DNA from: a bacterium
GTDB lineage: Bacteria > SZUA-79 > Acidulodesulfobacterales > Acidulodesulfobacteraceae
DNA length: 53,819 bases
Assembly (NCBI GenBank): GCA_027319095.1
Contig: DAHVNW010000008.1
Location: 1 to 53,819 of the forward strand
Reading direction: 5' to 3'
The notes under the pieces: model-generated
Database searches by the model: none
What the model saw: only the letters and a program-made list of their open reading frames with translations
What the model was told of the DNA's origin: nothing
Shown: piece by piece, positions 3,925 to 51,007 of the stretch
Layout: the number at the start of each line of letters is the position of its first letter
How positions within the stretch are numbered: position 1 is the first letter of the stretch
Position numbers and translations under genes: made by a program

Positions 3925-3979
3925 GTTACAAAAATTTAACATAAATGTCATAAAAATGTAACATTAATTTGATAAAATT
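3925..3979 (+). promoter_or_regulatory. Pho-box-like array copy 1: five tandem 11-bp units (GTTACAaaaat TTAACAtaaat GTCATAaaaat GTAACAttaat TTGATAaaatt), last unit overlapping a TGnTAAAAT extended -10
   Basis: Direct 11-bp periodicity read from the sequence. It is one of eight near-identical copies in the window. It resembles E. coli Pho-box half-sites (TGTCATA + 4 bp). Confidence 0.6.
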
Positions 3980-4062
3980 ATAAAGTAATAAAAAATTAAA
4001 TAAGCGCGTCAAGTAAATCGGCGTTAAATAATTTAGTTAAATAAATTATTTGGAGCAGTCAT

Positions 4063-4407
4063 ATGGAAGATTTGTCCGAATCATTTCAAAATTCCTTTAT
4101 GAATGAAGCGCAATACTTAAATAATAGCAAAATGGATAACGGTAAGGTCGCAGGCGTTGATTCGCCCGCCGCTTCCTCTGACATAAAGCCTTCGGCTTCA
4201 CAAACGTCTGACTGCGCATGCGGGAGAGTTCCTAAAAAATGCGCGATAACCGTAGAATGCGGGTGCAGGGAAAGTAACTTTTATATCCTGCTGACCGGGA
4301 AAGATATCGAAAACATATATGACAAGTTAATTAAAAAGTGCCCTTTATGCGGTTTTCCGACGACGGTTACTTTCGATTTCAGAGTTTCAACCATAACTGA
4401 ATATTAA
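4063..4407 (+). CDS. Small Cys-rich (zinc-ribbon-like) protein, paralog of 13845..14111
   Basis: The C-terminal ~50 aa (KKCAITVECGCRESNFYILLTGKDIENIYDKLIKKCPLCGFPTTVTFDF) aligns with the 13845 product (KNCVMNVKCSCEENNFNVLVSEEDVSRVYDRFAKKCINCGQPIKITFKF). Sits downstream of Pho-box copy 1. Confidence 0.55.
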   Translation: MEDLSESFQNSFMNEAQYLNNSKMDNGKVAGVDSPAASSDIKPSASQTSDCACGRVPKKCAITVECGCRESNFYILLTGKDIENIYDKLIKKCPLCGFPTTVTFDFRVSTITEY

Positions 4408-4532
4408 TATGGGCAAAAGTTAAGAGTGCAATTGCGGAACGTTTAGCATATCGCTTGAAAGGTTTCATCCGGCTATACATGAGATAAATAGATATTCGAC
4501 GATATAATTATTATATAATCTAAGGTTATCCC

Positions 4533-5387
4533 ATGCATGACGAGAAAGACCATATATTGACCTCTAAGAATACCATTTCGCATATAAAACTGCCGGCTTT
4601 ATATGAAAGCGAGCCGGCTTTTTCCGTAGTATTCGTAATAGGCATGCATAGGAGCGGAACGTCTCTTACTACCCGCATCGTGAATATAGCCGGATATACG
4701 ATTGGAAATTCTGCGGATATAATAGGACCGGATTCTGGCAATCCTACAGGATATTGGGAGCATCGTTCATTTGTTTCGCTTAATAGAAAAATAATTGCAT
4801 GCTATTTAATGCCGAAATTTTTATCCGCGCTCTTTTTTTCTAAACTTAAAAAGAAGGCGGTCGAATTGATTTCGAGTTTTAAAGATTGTCGCAAAATAGC
4901 TTTAAAGGACCCTATCGCTTCCATAACGCTGCCGTTTTGGATTAGTGCGGTCAGAGAGGCTCTGCCGGAAAGGGACGTTAAAATACTTGTTATAATATGT
5001 GTTCGCAATCCGCTCGACGTTTCTAAATCACTGCAAAACAGAGGTTTGATTATAACGAAAATTAATTGCGGCCTCTGGGAAAAATATATTTCGTCAGCTT
5101 TTAAAAATTCCGAAGGGTTGCCGAGGCACGTAGTTCATTACGAGAATTATTTCGATGGCGAATGCGATAACTTGATAAATAACTTAAGCTCTTTTCTGGG
5201 GATAAATTTAACTGTGGAGCAAGCCTTATGGATTAAAAGTTTTATCGACCCTAATTTAAGGGAAAGCGACATAGGCGACGGCATATGGAGAAGCAATCTT
5301 TCTATAGGTGCGAAGCAATTATATTTAAACCTGCTAAAGCAAAAAAATAAGAGAATAAAAAATAACGGTATGTTGAATTTAACATAG
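4533..5387 (+). CDS. Sulfotransferase-family protein (PAPS-binding 5'-PSB GMHRSGTS and 3'-PB RNPLDVSKS motifs)
   Basis: 284 aa; both sulfotransferase signature motifs are visible in the translation. Confidence 0.6.
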   Translation: MHDEKDHILTSKNTISHIKLPALYESEPAFSVVFVIGMHRSGTSLTTRIVNIAGYTIGNSADIIGPDSGNPTGYWEHRSFVSLNRKIIACYLMPKFLSALFFSKLKKKAVELISSFKDCRKIALKDPIASITLPFWISAVREALPERDVKILVIICVRNPLDVSKSLQNRGLIITKINCGLWEKYISSAFKNSEGLPRHVVHYENYFDGECDNLINNLSSFLGINLTVEQALWIKSFIDPNLRESDIGDGIWRSNLSIGAKQLYLNLLKQKNKRIKNNGMLNLT

Positions 5388-5423
5388 CTAAATCAAAATA
5401 ATCGGAATAATTATAATATTTAA

Positions 5424-5681
5424 ATGCGAAGAGGTTCTATTATGATAAACTTTAAGGAATTTTATAACGAAGAAAACCAGATAAGAGGGTGGATGTTTGC
5501 ACCAGAGGATTACGATACTGTTTTTGTCATAGGCAATATCAGCGAAGACGAAATACAGGACGCGATAGAAGACGATTATTGCGACGTCGTCAGATGCGAA
5601 AAGTATGTCGTGGAAAGCTGGAATATTCCCGAAGAAATCTTGGAAGAAATCGAAGCGGATAGCGGAAATGACATGGAATAA
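5424..5681 (+). CDS. Small acidic hypothetical protein
   Basis: 85-aa ORF, D/E-rich. The start may be the internal Met at 5442. Confidence 0.35.
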   Translation: MRRGSIMINFKEFYNEENQIRGWMFAPEDYDTVFVIGNISEDEIQDAIEDDYCDVVRCEKYVVESWNIPEEILEEIEADSGNDME

Positions 5682-5765
5682 TAATAAAATAGAGGCATCG
5701 ATAACAACCGTATCTAATTTTAATTCTTATATGGTTAATTCTTATTTCTAAGAAAGATAACGTCC

Positions 5766-5892
5766 AAAATTGCCGATAGAAAATTATTTTTCCCGATTTT
5801 AATTTTTAACCTATCCGGTTTCGTTCCCGCCTACGTGGTAATCCAGTGTTTATATATACGAAGCTATTTAAAAATTCCCATAGGCAATTTTG
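5766..5892. repeat. Inverted-repeat element A (left arm CAAAATTGCCGATAGAAAATTATTTTTC, right arm TTCCCATAGGCAATTTTG), upstream of the polyphosphate operon
   Basis: The 28-bp left arm is identical to 26111..26138. Arms are inverted copies about 18 bp long and ~80 bp apart. Confidence 0.6.
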
Positions 5893-5952
5893 TGATGACA
5901 TTGTAAAATTTATTAAATTAATATAATATGAAAAAATGGAGGGAAGCGGGCT

Positions 5953-48872: not shown

Positions 48873-48873
48873 A

Positions 48874-49083
48874 ATGCACCGTTTTTTAGTCGTAATAGAA
48901 AAAGCCGACGGAAATTATTCGGCATATTCCCCAGACCTTCCGGGGTGCGTGGCAACCGGCGCTACCAGAGAAGAAGCTGAGAAGAATATGCATGATGCCA
49001 TAAATATGCACGTTCAGGGATTAAGGGAAGATAATATGCCTATACCCGAAACTTATTCTTTTGCTGAATATATGGCCGTCTGA
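48874..49083 (+). CDS. hicB: HicB-family antitoxin
   Basis: MHRFLVVIEKADGNYSAYSPDLPGCVATGATREEAEKNMHDAI... Confidence 0.75.
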   Translation: MHRFLVVIEKADGNYSAYSPDLPGCVATGATREEAEKNMHDAINMHVQGLREDNMPIPETYSFAEYMAV

Positions 49084-49219
49084 AATTGCATATAACCGCA
49101 CTTAGCCAAAAAAGACAAGTAGAAAAACCAATTTATATTATGGCAAGATTTTCACATAGGCATTTTTTTAGTTAGCTTATTTATTTAATAAAACAAACTA
49201 CTTACATAATGAGGGCTTT

Positions 49220-49263
49220 GGATTGTGACTCCGGTGGTCGCAGGTTCAAAACCTGTCATCCAC
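49220..49263 (+). repeat. 44-bp perfect direct repeat of the tRNA-His 3' half (= 48455..48498); att-like boundary of a mini-islet
   Basis: GGATTGTGACTCCGGTGGTCGCAGGTTCAAAACCTGTCATCCAC present twice. Confidence 0.8.
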
Positions 49264-49446
49264 TCCAAATTTTTAACCTTATTGGACTATTAGGCAAAAA
49301 ACAGAGAGTATCGTTATACCGCATTATCTATTTTCGGAGATATAATTTTATTATAACGGTCAGGGCATATTCTATAAATATATAAAAATATAAAATTAAC
49401 GACAAATTAATTTATAATCAATAAAAAATTACAGGGGTAAAAGCAG

Positions 49447-50433
49447 ATGAAAAAACGTAAATTAGGGAACGATAACCTGGAAGTTTCCGCTATCGGACTG
49501 GGCTGCATGGGCATGTCGCACGGCTATGGACCGGCAGCGGACAAAAAGGATATGGTAAATCTTATACATAAAGCCGTCGATATGGGTATAACGTTTTTCG
49601 ACACCGCTGAAGTTTACGGTCCGTTTATCAACGAGGAACTCGTAGGAGAGGCGCTTTTCCCGTTAAGAGATAAGGTTATAATAGCTACTAAGTTCGGCAT
49701 TTATACCGACGCCGGAGGACAGCAGGCACAGGACAGCAGGCCCGAAACTATTAAAAGAAGTGTGGAAGGCTCTCTTAAACGCCTTAAGACGGACCATATA
49801 GATTTATACTACCAGCACCGCGTAGATATTAACGTTCCGATAGAAGAAGTCGCAGGAACCGTAAAGGAACTTATCCGGGAAGGCAAAGTAAAGTACTTCG
49901 GGCTATCCGAACCTGGTATAAAAACAATAAGGCGTGCTCATGCCGTCCAGCCTGTTACAGCCGTTCAAAGCGAATACTCTTTGTGGTGGAGGAAGCCGGA
50001 AGAAGAACTTATTCCTACACTCGAAGAACTTGGAATAGGACTCGTTCCGTTCAGTCCCTTAGGACGCGGTTATCTAACCGGAAAAATGGACGAAAATACC
50101 AAGCTCGACAAATCCGATTTCCGCAATATACTGCCACGCTTTACGGTCGAAGCCAGAAAAGCAAACCATGCTATAGTCGACCTTCTTGTTGAAATAGCAG
50201 GACGCAAAAAAGCAACGCCTGCCCAGATCGCTCTTGCATGGCTTTTATCAAAAAAACCCTGGATAGTTCCTATTCCAGGCACTACAAAACTATCCCGCCT
50301 CGAGGAAAACATCGGCGCTATAAATATAGAACTTTCGCCCGAAGAACTTAAGGAAATAGACGATGCCTCATTAAAAATAGAGATTGAGGGGAACAGATAC
50401 CCTGAGGCATTAGAAAAAAGAAGCGGACTTTAA
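49447..50433 (+). CDS. Aldo/keto reductase
   Basis: AKR motifs [12 protein letters not shown]...EE. Confidence 0.85.
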
Positions 50434-50535
50434 TAAAATAAATTACTTATACAATCGTCAAAGTATTTCGTAAAAAATATTATCGTCATGCAGATTTTTT
50501 TGAGAGGCGCATATTTTTTAGCGCCGGTGTAAGTC

Positions 50536-50832
50536 TTAGTTTTTTGATTCAGATTTTGCCACAATTACAGCTTTGTCTTCTATCTCATTCTTTTTTTGAG
50601 CCTCTCTCATTTTTCTGCGTTCTTCAAGAATAGCGTTATTTCTTTGTTTAATTTCCCATTCTTCCATTACGGCTTTAGGGTCTAACACCAATATGCGCTT
50701 AAATAGTTCTTCCATCTCCTGCCTTTCTCTTTGAACGGCGTATATTTTATCTACGAACTCCTGATAGCTAAGCCTTTTTTTTGCATCTTTTAATTTAGTT
50801 CTTCTCTTTTTGCGCAGTTTTCTACCGTCCAT
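50536..50832 (-). CDS. Hypothetical highly charged (K/R/E-rich) coiled-coil protein
   Basis: 98-aa ORF downstream of minus-strand Pho-box copy 7. Confidence 0.4.
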   Translation of the reverse strand: MDGRKLRKKRRTKLKDAKKRLSYQEFVDKIYAVQRERQEMEELFKRILVLDPKAVMEEWEIKQRNNAILEERRKMREAQKKNEIEDKAVIVAKSESKN

Positions 50833-50946
50833 AATAAAACCTCCATGTTTAATTAAATTTTAGTAAGTTGCGATTCAGATAAATTAACGTTTAAATTTAT
50901 ATTTAACCAGGAGTTTTTATTTATATCATAAATTGTGTTAAAACAT

Positions 50947-51007
50947 TATGAAGTTTTTATTACAATAACGTTAAATTTTTGTTACGTTTATGTTAAAAAT
51001 TTTTAGA
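50947..51007 (-). promoter_or_regulatory. Pho-box-like array copy 7 on the minus strand (TTAACAtaaac GTAACAaaaat TTAACGttatt GTAATAaaaac TTCATAATg)
   Basis: The reverse complement shows the same 11-bp unit register. Confidence 0.55.

What the first reader, a model, noticed from the sequence alone, without database searches (positions are those of the whole stretch)
3925..51007. Eight copies of a 5-unit, 11-bp-periodic Pho-box-like promoter module define a candidate phosphate-starvation regulon
Seen directly: near-identical ~55-bp modules start at 3925, 12251, 12411, 17780, 19775, 22456, 24539 (plus strand) and 50947..51007 (minus strand). Each consists of five head-to-tail 11-bp units with a hexamer core (GTTACA / TTAACA / GTCATA / GTAACA / TTGATA) plus a 5-bp A/T spacer. 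The last unit forms an extended -10 (TGnTATAAT/TGnTAAAAT), so the array replaces the -35. Established knowledge: PhoB-class Pho boxes are 7-bp direct repeats (TGTCATA) with 4-bp A/T spacers on an 11-bp register, placed about 10 bp upstream of the -10. The middle units here (cGTCATAaaaatGTAACAt) match roughly 14 of 18 positions of the E. coli Pho-box consensus as recalled from memory. Inference: downstream genes fit phosphate scavenging, namely a Tat-exported phosphoesterase, a Pho84-type Pi transporter, a TonB-dependent receptor and exbB-tonB-exbD. An OmpR-type HK/RR pair lies divergent from copy 1. Five tandem half-sites per promoter is unusually regular and long.
Basis: partly seen in the sequence, partly recalled or inferred. 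Interest (0 to 1): 0.8.

Follow-up and report, generated by a model that had tools for sequence, protein, structure and literature searches.

The report
Pho-box promoter arrays of a phosphate regulon
Eight promoters in this acid-mine-drainage bacterium carry the classic array of 11-bp-spaced binding sites for the phosphate-starvation regulator, so this is an ordinary, well-preserved phosphate regulon in an uncultured lineage and not a new kind of control element.

Summary
The repeats are real. Seven plus-strand copies score 49-62 bits with their own matrix. One divergent minus-strand copy scores 30 bits, and nothing else exceeds 17. Each copy has four direct [T/G]T(A/T/C)A(C/T)A half-sites on an 11-bp register. 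The array ends 9 nt before a TGnTAnnAT extended -10 and replaces the -35.

A degenerate pattern taken only from these copies was scanned against GTDB genomes. It landed in front of pstS 15 times, pstC-like permease genes 4 times, Pi transporters, TonB receptors, ppx and a phosphoesterase. The closest relative MAG (Ca. Acidulodesulfobacterales/SZUA-79) has it before pstS, as do Nitrospirota, Pseudomonadales and Halanaerobium. So this is a PhoB/PhoP-type Pho box.

Four 11-bp-periodic repeats is the standard Bacillus subtilis architecture, not an unusual one.

The divergent HK/RR pair is probably not the regulator. The kinase is ArsS-family and no PAS domain was detected. The RR fails the PhoB cut-off. 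In three of four further relatives examined the pair has no module within 8-10 kb. Published MAGs of the order list a separate PhoR/PhoB.

Side finding: copy 2 drives a conserved ~90-nt terminated transcript, a candidate Pho-regulated small RNA.

The parts
3925..3978 (+). Module copy 1. Half-sites GTTACA 3925-3930, TTAACA 3936-3941, GTCATA 3947-3952, GTAACA 3958-3963. Extended -10 TGATAAAAT at 3970-3978. Points at the 114-aa gene.
12251..12305 (+). Module copy 2: ATTACA/TTAACA/TTAACA/GTAACA, then the extended -10 TGTTATGAT at 12297-12305. No ORF downstream.
12311..12400 (+). Candidate small RNA driven by copy 2. It has an invariant 5' AAUACUGUAAGC, a C-rich CCUCCAU stretch, and a 10-bp-stem terminator followed by a U-run.
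   Evidence: no Rfam family
12411..12464 (+). Module copy 3; -10 TATAAT at 12459-12464 without TG. Points at the phosphoesterase gene.
17780..17833 (+). Module copy 4. Points at the TPR protein through a roughly 200-nt leader.
19775..19828 (+). Module copy 5. Points at the TonB-dependent receptor.
22456..22509 (+). Module copy 6. Points at exbB-tonB-exbD.
24539..24592 (+). Module copy 7. Points at the MFS Pi:H+ symporter.
50920..50996 (-). Module copy 8. Six half-sites (TTAACA, GTAACA, TTAACG, GTAATA, TTCATA, TTAACA) plus TGATATAAA. Points at the 98-aa K/E-rich gene.
4063..5387 (+). First genes after copy 1: a 114-aa Cys-rich protein with no family match and a 284-aa sulfotransferase-like protein.
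5953..12129 (+). CHAD, Ppx/GppA, Ppx/GppA and Ppk1 (polyphosphate metabolism). The genes are on the same strand after copy 1, but a 270-nt gap lies before CHAD, so co-transcription is not shown.
12522..13736 (+). PF04185 phosphoesterase (PLC/AcpA family) with an RREFVK twin-arginine signal.
18046..18825 (+). TPR protein, 259 aa, with a signal-like N-terminus.
19881..22367 (+). TonB-dependent receptor (Plug + barrel).
22623..24502 (+). exbB, tonB, exbD.
24665..26942 (+). MFS phosphate:H+ symporter-like gene (TIGR00887 best hit, below cut-off), followed by a PHP-domain phosphoesterase.
50536..50832 (-). 98-aa Lys/Glu-rich protein of unknown function, downstream of copy 8.
1900..3817 (-). ArsS-family histidine kinase (1900-3147) and OmpR-type response regulator (3137-3817; the called start is 3 codons later). 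The pair is divergent from copy 1. It is a candidate regulator but an unlikely one.

Best explanation
Each module is a Pho-box promoter. It has four head-to-tail 11-bp units, which is two Pho boxes and room for two dimers of a phosphorylated OmpR/PhoB-family response regulator. The units occupy about -60 to -22, and the proximal box ends 9 nt upstream of a TGnTAnnAT extended -10. There is no usable -35: GTCATA/GTAATA sits at that position.

Transcription would therefore depend on the bound regulator recruiting sigma region 4, as at E. coli PhoB and B. subtilis PhoP promoters.

Under phosphate limitation the regulator would switch on:
- a Tat-exported phosphoesterase
- a Pi:H+ symporter with a PHP phosphoesterase
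- a TonB-dependent receptor and its ExbB-TonB-ExbD energiser
- a TPR protein
- two small proteins of unknown function
- probably the CHAD-ppx-ppx-ppk1 polyphosphate genes
- a small terminated RNA

Shown here: the repeats, their geometry, their conservation in front of orthologous genes, and their presence in front of pstS in the same lineage and in other phyla.

Inferred: the -10 and transcription start assignment, activation as opposed to repression, the phosphate signal, and the identity of the regulator. The regulator is most likely a canonical PhoB encoded outside the window.
For: Repeat family and scores.

Geometry and conservation: 45 non-redundant modules from Ca. Acidulodesulfobacterales-type MAGs give the consensus tgTTACaAAAATTTAACAtAAaTGTAATAAaaTTGTAACATTcGTTTGtTAaaAT. 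Information peaks fall on four hexamers and on TG/TA/AT of the -10.

Genome scan: the pattern TTNACNNAANNKTNAYANNNNTGTAACATT was derived from the window only. It gave at least 115 loci and 120 hits, 92 with a downstream ORF. Among those ORFs:
- 15 PBP_like_2 (PstS family)
- 4 PstC-like
- 5 Pho84-type MFS
- 8 TonB receptors
- 1 Na/Pi cotransporter
- 1 Ppx
- 1 PF04185 phosphoesterase

PstS was confirmed by TIGR00975 at 268 and 263 bits (cut-off 205) for L117 and L031, and PstC by TIGR02138. L117 belongs to MAG TL1-3.bin68, whose Pi symporter is 86% identical to the window's and carries the same module.

Orthologues of the window's Pi symporter and TonB receptor keep the module. The PLC-like esterase and TPR protein also have orthologues in module-bearing relative loci.

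Literature: the PHO box is two 11-nt direct repeat units of 7 conserved plus 4 less conserved bases, and the E. coli core is CTGTCAT (PMC4415409). [quoted passage not shown]
Against: There is no expression or binding data, and the -10 and start sites are predicted only.

No pstSCAB, phoU or canonical phoBR lies in the window.

The generic sigma-70 scan is uninformative in this AT-rich DNA: 54 sites found against 51 expected.

TonB receptors and ExbBD are more often iron-regulated.

The pattern itself forces three half-sites in every hit.
Confidence: 0.85

Rival explanations
1. The modules are bound by the divergently encoded OmpR-type regulator (3137-3817) under control of the ArsS-family kinase. 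This would be a non-classical Pho system, like C. jejuni PhosS/PhosR, or a response to another signal such as acid or envelope stress that co-opts P-scavenging genes.
For: - The RR has a winged-helix OmpR/PhoB domain. The PhoB base-contact positions are kept in SVDVLIGRIRKK and IRGYGYKF (compared with PhoB from memory).
- The pair lies about 100 bp from copy 1 in three independent assemblies.
- Orthologues lie 0.9-4 kb from a module in L073, L090/L091 and L130.
- In Desulfurella amilsii the 62% orthologue lies 4 kb from PPK2-CHAD-ppx-ppx.
Against: - The HK passes the ArsS-family equivalog (314 bits, cut-off 250). It scores 75 against PhoR (cut-off 334), no PAS domain was detected, and it has a roughly 100-aa extracytoplasmic loop.
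- The RR scores 141 against PhoB (cut-off 296) and scores higher against MtrA, CseB, OmpR and CreB.
- In the 88%, 78% and 70% relatives (L123, L137, L135) there is no module within 8-10 kb and none in front of the RR-HK operon. The window's adjacency results from a rearrangement.
- Desulfurella and Sulfurihydrogenibium orthologues follow an LTXXQ (CpxP-like) gene.
- The KO table of four published MAGs of the order lists PhoR K07636, PhoB K07657 and PhoU in all four, plus generic OmpR-family K02483/K02484 in three. JGI gives this RR family a generic OmpR-family name.
Confidence: 0.25
2. The modules mark an iron or other TonB-linked uptake regulon and not a phosphate regulon.
For: Two of the eight promoters drive a TonB-dependent receptor and exbB-tonB-exbD. 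The receptor's weak best family hits are heme/hemoglobin receptors.
Against: - The site is a direct-repeat array, not a Fur-type palindrome.
- The same module precedes pstS, pstC-like genes, Pi symporters and ppx in relatives and in other phyla.
- The other window targets are phosphoesterase, Pi symporter and polyP genes.
Confidence: 0.03
3. The copies are a dispersed repeat, either a mobile or a duplicated promoter cassette, whose similarity reflects recent copying and not regulator binding.
For: Copies 1, 6 and 7 are near-identical, spacers included.
Against: - Similarity stops at the array and the -10.
- No terminal inverted repeats or target duplications were seen.
- All copies are in promoter position and orientation.
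- The same architecture with different spacer sequence is kept in front of orthologous genes in MAGs whose proteins are only 47-86% identical, and in unrelated phyla.
Confidence: 0.03

Closest known systems
Bacillus subtilis PhoP core binding region (Pho regulon promoters such as phoA, phoD, pstS, tuaA)
   Same: Four TT(A/T/C)ACA-like hexamers with 11-bp periodicity on the coding strand, upstream of a -10 and without a good -35 (PMC11870197). The window's hexamers TTAACA, GTAACA, GTTACA and GTCATA fit this consensus, and the array spans about -60 to -22.
   Different: The organism is a diderm from an uncultured lineage (Ca. Acidulodesulfobacterales/SZUA-79). The first base is G about as often as T. 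The targets include a TonB receptor and ExbB-TonB-ExbD, which Bacillus lacks.
Escherichia coli PhoB Pho box (CTGTCATAWAWCTGTCAY, about 10 bp upstream of the -10; pstS has two in tandem)
   Same: The 11-nt direct repeat units have 7 conserved bases and 4 A/T-rich bases (PMC4415409). Units 3-4 match 14 of 18 positions. The position relative to the -10 is the same, and two boxes in tandem occur as at pstS (the pstS detail is from my own knowledge).
   Different: The half-site core is GTAACA/TTAACA and not GTCATA in three of the four units. The -10 is usually of the extended TGn type.
Campylobacter jejuni PhosS/PhosR non-classical phosphate two-component system
   Same: It would be the precedent if the ArsS-family kinase and the OmpR-type RR next to copy 1 turn out to be the regulator. 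The system is named as a Pho TCS in PMC4415409.
   Different: The reported C. jejuni pho box (GTTTCNAAAANGTTTC, from memory) does not resemble the module. Orthology of the window pair to PhosSR was not tested.
Streptomyces coelicolor PhoP direct repeat units (DRu)
   Same: 11-nt direct repeat units are combined in variable numbers into simple or complex operators (PMC2275107 abstract; PMC4415409).
   Different: The core is GC-rich (GTTCACC). Streptomyces operators vary much more in unit number and arrangement than the uniform four-unit arrays here.

Membership tests
PhoB/PhoP-type Pho-box promoter | Tandem direct repeats of 11-nt units (conserved 6-7-mer plus A/T-rich spacer) | tested here: met
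   Four units at 11-bp spacing (10 bp for unit 1 in copies 3 and 5) in 7 copies, and six units in copy 8. The information profile from 45 relatives agrees.
PhoB/PhoP-type Pho-box promoter | The proximal box lies about 10 bp upstream of the -10 and replaces the -35 | tested here: met
   9 nt separate GTAACA from the TAnnAT hexamer in copies 1 and 3-7, and 10 nt in copies 2 and 8. The -35 position holds GTCATA/GTAATA. The -10 is predicted, not mapped.
PhoB/PhoP-type Pho-box promoter | Found in front of pstS and other Pi-acquisition genes | tested here: met
   15 PstS and 4 PstC-like ORFs among 92 downstream ORFs of pattern hits, including the closest relative MAG. The window targets are given.
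PhoB/PhoP-type Pho-box promoter | Bound by the phosphorylated Pho regulator and induced by Pi limitation | not testable with these tools
   Needs EMSA or footprinting and expression data.
B. subtilis-type PHO box | [quoted passage not shown] | tested here: met
   The regex [TG]T[ATC]A[CT]A chained at 10-12 bp finds arrays of 3-5 units at six of the seven plus-strand copies and at copy 8. It misses copy 4, which has A-first and TTAACC hexamers. Only one other array is found in the window. The definition is from PMC11870197.
Classical PhoR/PhoB two-component system (for genes 1900-3817) | RR is a PhoB equivalog | tested here: not met
   TIGR02154 scores 141 bits against a cut-off of 296. Nine other RR families score higher.
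Classical PhoR/PhoB two-component system (for genes 1900-3817) | Kinase has a cytoplasmic PAS domain and is a PhoR equivalog | tested here: not met
   Pfam finds only HisKA and HATPase_c. TIGR02966 scores 75 against a cut-off of 334. The ArsS family NF038389 scores 314 against a cut-off of 250.
Classical PhoR/PhoB two-component system (for genes 1900-3817) | Own operon preceded by a Pho box (autoregulation), or linked to pst-phoU | tested here: not met
   No module lies within 8-10 kb of the pair in L123, L135-L138, L120 or L122. No RR or HK gene lies in the lineage's pstS loci. In the window the module faces away from the RR.
Fur/iron box | A 19-bp inverted repeat overlapping the promoter | tested here: not met
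   The array is direct-repeat. No palindrome is present in the modules.
Dispersed mobile repeat (MITE/REP-like) | Terminal inverted repeats, target duplications, and no fixed relation to genes | tested here: not met
   Similarity is confined to the array plus the -10. All copies are in promoter position and orientation.

The most novel reading that the evidence does not exclude
In this lineage the Pho regulon may be wired differently from the textbook. Control could run through the ArsS-family kinase and OmpR-type regulator beside copy 1 (a PhosSR-like non-classical system). The output could include a conserved Pho-box-driven small RNA with a C-rich anti-Shine-Dalgarno stretch and, in relatives, a Phd/YefM-PIN toxin-antitoxin pair and an unannotated, probable outer-membrane, protein. 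The sRNA part alone is the more probable of these.
Probability: 0.25. Interest if true: 0.5.

Novelty: new member of a known kind. Interest (0 to 1): 0.3.

Why it matters
It gives a ready-made, high-information Pho-box model for an uncultured acid-mine-drainage phylum. With that model, phosphate-starvation genes can be read straight from MAGs. These include unannotated genes: a 114-aa Cys-rich protein, a 98-aa K/E-rich protein, a 520-565-aa probable porin in relatives, and a small RNA.

It also shows that the GTAACA/TTAACA four-repeat Pho box, known from Bacillus, is shared across Nitrospirota, Desulfobacterota-like lineages, Pseudomonadales and Clostridia. This is useful for regulon annotation, but it is not a new mechanism.

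Tried and rejected
- **Exact look-ups.** Looking up the RR and G6PD proteins by exact sequence found nothing, because the called starts or sequences differ. 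ExbD and DUF488 look-ups located the source: ENA metagenome contig ERZ27237364 k141_1060628.
- **Rfam.** At gathering threshold on the whole window it found only 5 tRNAs. An E-value search on the copy-2 transcript gave only noise.
- **Generic promoter/terminator scan.** No better than shuffles.
- **Metagenome scan with a lineage-specific pattern.** Only 6 loci, none with a canonical phoBR.
- **Covariance model of the sRNA.** It found only its four training sequences in 430 kb of related loci.
- **Complement of the sRNA 5' end.** No enrichment in the window: 19 matches against 12.4 expected.
- **Unknown 538-aa module-associated protein of relatives.** PDB, Pfam and NCBIfam searches found no family.
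- **Literature.** I could not open the primary B. subtilis papers, so the architecture is cited from PMC11870197.
- **Canonical PhoB of this lineage.** I could not locate it.
- **Rejected readings.** A Fur/iron box and a mobile-element repeat; see rival explanations.

Full report
**1. Observation**

The repeat finder recovers the family without prior knowledge. There are seven plus-strand copies in register (3922, 12248, 12408, 17777, 19772, 22453, 24536) and an inverted copy near 50931-51023. Reading the sequence shows the hexamers GTTACA/TTAACA/GTCATA/GTAACA at 11-bp spacing, followed by TGATAAAAT or TTATATAAT.

A 43-nt matrix built from the seven plus copies scores them at 48.8-62.5 bits and the minus copy at 29.8 bits. 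The best unrelated site on either strand scores about 13.5 bits; values up to 16.4 are register-shifted hits inside the copies. This is partly circular for the seven training copies. The gap to everything else is still wide, and the independent recovery in relatives (section 4) removes the circularity.

All copies are intergenic and face a downstream gene.

**2. Anatomy**

I anchored on the invariant TGTAACATT of unit 4. The GTAACA hexamer ends 9 nt before a TAnnAT hexamer, and that hexamer is usually preceded by TGn. If the -10 hexamer sits at -12..-7, the four hexamers sit at about -60..-55, -49..-44, -38..-33 and -27..-22. The -35 position is occupied by GTCATA/GTAATA, which matches TTGACA at 3 of 6 positions.

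In 45 non-redundant modules from related MAGs it reads TTGnTA. The G is invariant and the fourth base is free, whereas genuine half-sites keep A at position 4. It is the extended -10. It falls on the 11-bp register only because the box-to-(-10) distance is fixed.

Copy 8 has six half-sites (50996..50936, minus strand) and TGATATAAA at 50928..50920.

**3. Genes**

Pfam and NCBIfam annotation gives the following targets.

| Copy | Downstream genes |
|---|---|
| 1 | 114-aa Cys-rich protein with no family; sulfotransferase-like protein; 79-aa ORF; then, after a 270-nt gap, CHAD, two Ppx/GppA and Ppk1 (co-transcription not shown) |
| 2 | No ORF (see section 7) |
| 3 | PF04185 phosphoesterase with an RREFVK twin-arginine signal |
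| 4 | TPR protein |
| 5 | TonB-dependent receptor |
| 6 | exbB-tonB-exbD |
| 7 | MFS transporter whose best family is the phosphate:H+ symporter TIGR00887 (314 bits, below its cut-off of 610), followed by a PHP phosphoesterase |
| 8 | 98-aa Lys/Glu-rich protein |

**4. Comparative test**

I reduced units 2-4 to the degenerate pattern TTNACNNAANNKTNAYANNNNTGTAACATT, using the window only. I scanned one genome per GTDB species with it.

Of 120 hits, 92 had an ORF starting within 400 nt downstream on the same strand. Scanning all 92 against Pfam and clustering them by BLAST gave these groups:

- 15 PBP_like_2 proteins
- 4 PstC-like permeases
- 8 TonB receptors
- 5 Pho84-type MFS transporters
- a Na/Pi cotransporter
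- a Ppx
- a PF04185 phosphoesterase
- 13 copies of an unannotated 520-565-aa protein
- 7 Phd/YefM antitoxins

The PBP_like_2 cluster is PstS. L117 and L031 score 268 and 263 bits on TIGR00975 (cut-off 205). L062 and L104 pass TIGR02136. L009 is PstC by TIGR02138.

L117 comes from MAG TL1-3.bin68. Its Pi symporter (L018) is 86% identical to the window's and carries the same module. The same lineage therefore uses the module at pstS.

The named relatives place the window in Ca. Acidulodesulfobacterales / SZUA-79, an acid-mine-drainage and hydrothermal group. They are Ca. Acidulodesulfobacterium sp. H_13, Ca. Acididesulfobacter and SZUA-79.

Ten of the PstS hits and all PstC hits are from other phyla: Nitrospirota, Pseudomonadales, Desulfobacterales and Halanaerobium. 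Their flanks often show further half-sites in register that the pattern did not demand.

Since pstS or pstC is roughly one gene in a thousand, 19 of 92 cannot be chance. A PWM scan of 39 lineage loci found 53 modules with the same four-unit-plus-(-10) layout. Some stand in front of orthologues of the window's Pi symporter and TonB receptor. Orthologues of the PLC-like esterase and the TPR protein also occur in these module-bearing loci.

**5. Comparison with known systems**

The PHO box is defined as two 11-nt direct repeat units with seven conserved and four less conserved bases. The E. coli core is CTGTCAT, and the bound regulator contacts sigma (PMC4415409).

The window's modules meet that description exactly, including six units in copy 8. 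Units 3-4 match the E. coli 18-mer at 14 of 18 positions. The architecture is therefore standard.

**6. Which regulator?**

The divergent pair is real and the adjacency is not an assembly artefact, because three assemblies show it. The evidence against it being the Pho regulator is as follows.

- The kinase passes NCBI's ArsS-family equivalog (314 bits, cut-off 250). It scores only 75 on PhoR. Pfam detects no PAS domain, and there is a roughly 100-residue extracytoplasmic loop.
- The RR scores 141 on PhoB (cut-off 296), below MtrA, CseB, OmpR, CreB and others.
- Its nearest relatives outside the lineage are in Desulfurella, Hippea and Sulfurihydrogenibium. In the two contexts examined (Desulfurella, Sulfurihydrogenibium) the pair follows an LTXXQ (CpxP-like) gene.
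- In an 88% identical relative the pair sits beside TusA/TetR/DoxD. BLAST shows that the window differs from it by a rearrangement that brought the pair next to copy 1.
- Relatives at 78% and 70% identity also lack any module within 8 kb. No RR-HK operon has a module facing it.
- The lineage's pstS loci contain no RR or HK gene.
- The KO table for four published MAGs of the order lists PhoR (K07636), PhoB (K07657) and PhoU (K02039) in all four, plus generic OmpR-family K02483/K02484 in three. JGI labels this RR family with a generic OmpR-family name.

In its favour, orthologues lie 0.9-4 kb from a module in three other contexts: L073, L090/L091 and L130. In Desulfurella amilsii the orthologue lies 4 kb from PPK2-CHAD-ppx-ppx.

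I put about 25% on this pair being the binder. The rest is mostly on a canonical PhoB encoded elsewhere.

**7. Side finding: a candidate small RNA**

Copy 2 has a proper TGTTATGAT -10 but no ORF. What follows is AATACTGTAAGC, a small hairpin, a C-rich GCCTCCATGTTTTACCCCAC stretch, and a 10-bp-stem terminator with a T-run. The fold has z = -3.9.

Three other MAGs (L101, L113, L119) have the same unit after a Pho-box array. The 11-nt 5' end is identical, each has a C-rich stretch, and each has a terminator of different sequence. Five of 12 terminator pairs change on both sides while staying paired. No Rfam family matches.

This is a candidate Pho-regulated small RNA of about 90 nt. Its targets are unknown.

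**8. Verdict**

It is a new member of a known kind, not a new architecture. The suggested regulator is doubtful. Interest is modest and rests mainly on the regulon map for an uncultured lineage and on the small RNA.

Noticed in passing
window 12311-12400 (+); also L101 5226-5310 (-), L113 6274-6360 (+), L119 3245-3330 (-): A Pho-box-driven transcript of about 90 nt with no ORF. It has an invariant 5' AAUACUGUAAGC, a C-rich (CCUCC-like) stretch and a terminator with compensatory changes. This is a candidate phosphate-regulated small RNA that is absent from Rfam.
   Followed up: yes
window 18988-19655 (+); L010, L012, L054, L084, L090, L091, L096: A Phd/YefM antitoxin plus PIN toxin pair sits between copies 4 and 5. 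In seven related loci a 58%-identical 81-aa Phd gene has its own full-strength module (up to 62.5 bits), so a toxin-antitoxin pair appears to belong to the Pho regulon there. In the window it has only a TGTATAAT promoter and no module.
   Followed up: partly
L005 6294-7907 (+) and 12 other related loci; no homologue in the window: The gene most often found behind the module in relatives encodes a 520-565-aa protein with no Pfam, NCBIfam or PDB match. It has a signal peptide and a C-terminal ...ARIAF, which suggests an outer-membrane beta-barrel, perhaps a phosphate porin.
   Followed up: partly
window 48427-48502 and 49220-49267: The 3' 48 nt of tRNA-His are duplicated 765 bp downstream at 98% identity, a typical integration scar. 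It lies at one breakpoint of the rearrangement that distinguishes this genome from the 88% relative L123, where the RR-HK pair follows DoxD and tRNA-His.
   Followed up: partly
window 4063-4407; L113 5075-5380; L054 about 1213-1359: The first gene after copy 1 encodes a 114-aa Cys-rich protein (CxC...C...CGC...CPxCG, zinc-ribbon-like) with no family. In relatives a paralogue stands directly behind the module that follows ppk1.
   Followed up: partly
L122 (Desulfurella amilsii MDSU01000018.1) 7405-16675: The 62% orthologue of the RR-HK pair is preceded by an LTXXQ (CpxP-like) gene. It lies 4 kb upstream of a PPK2-CHAD-Ppx-Ppx cluster, echoing the window's RR-HK / CHAD-ppx-ppx-ppk1 neighbourhood. 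No Pho-box array is present there.
   Followed up: partly
window 39532-39584, 42078-42130, 5389-5441: Three copies of a 53-nt element (family D3). A GTCGCGAAGCGAC hairpin is present only in the first two copies, where the element ends at the start codon (Band 7 gene, G6PD gene). The shared part is an AT-rich stretch plus TTTAAATG(C/T)GA(A/G)G. The third copy ends just before the 79-aa ORF.
   Followed up: no
window 17841-18045: Copy 4 is followed by a leader of about 200 nt before the TPR gene. The leader contains a CU-rich stretch (CCUCCUCUCUCU) and a perfect 13-bp-stem hairpin at 17918-17948.
   Followed up: no
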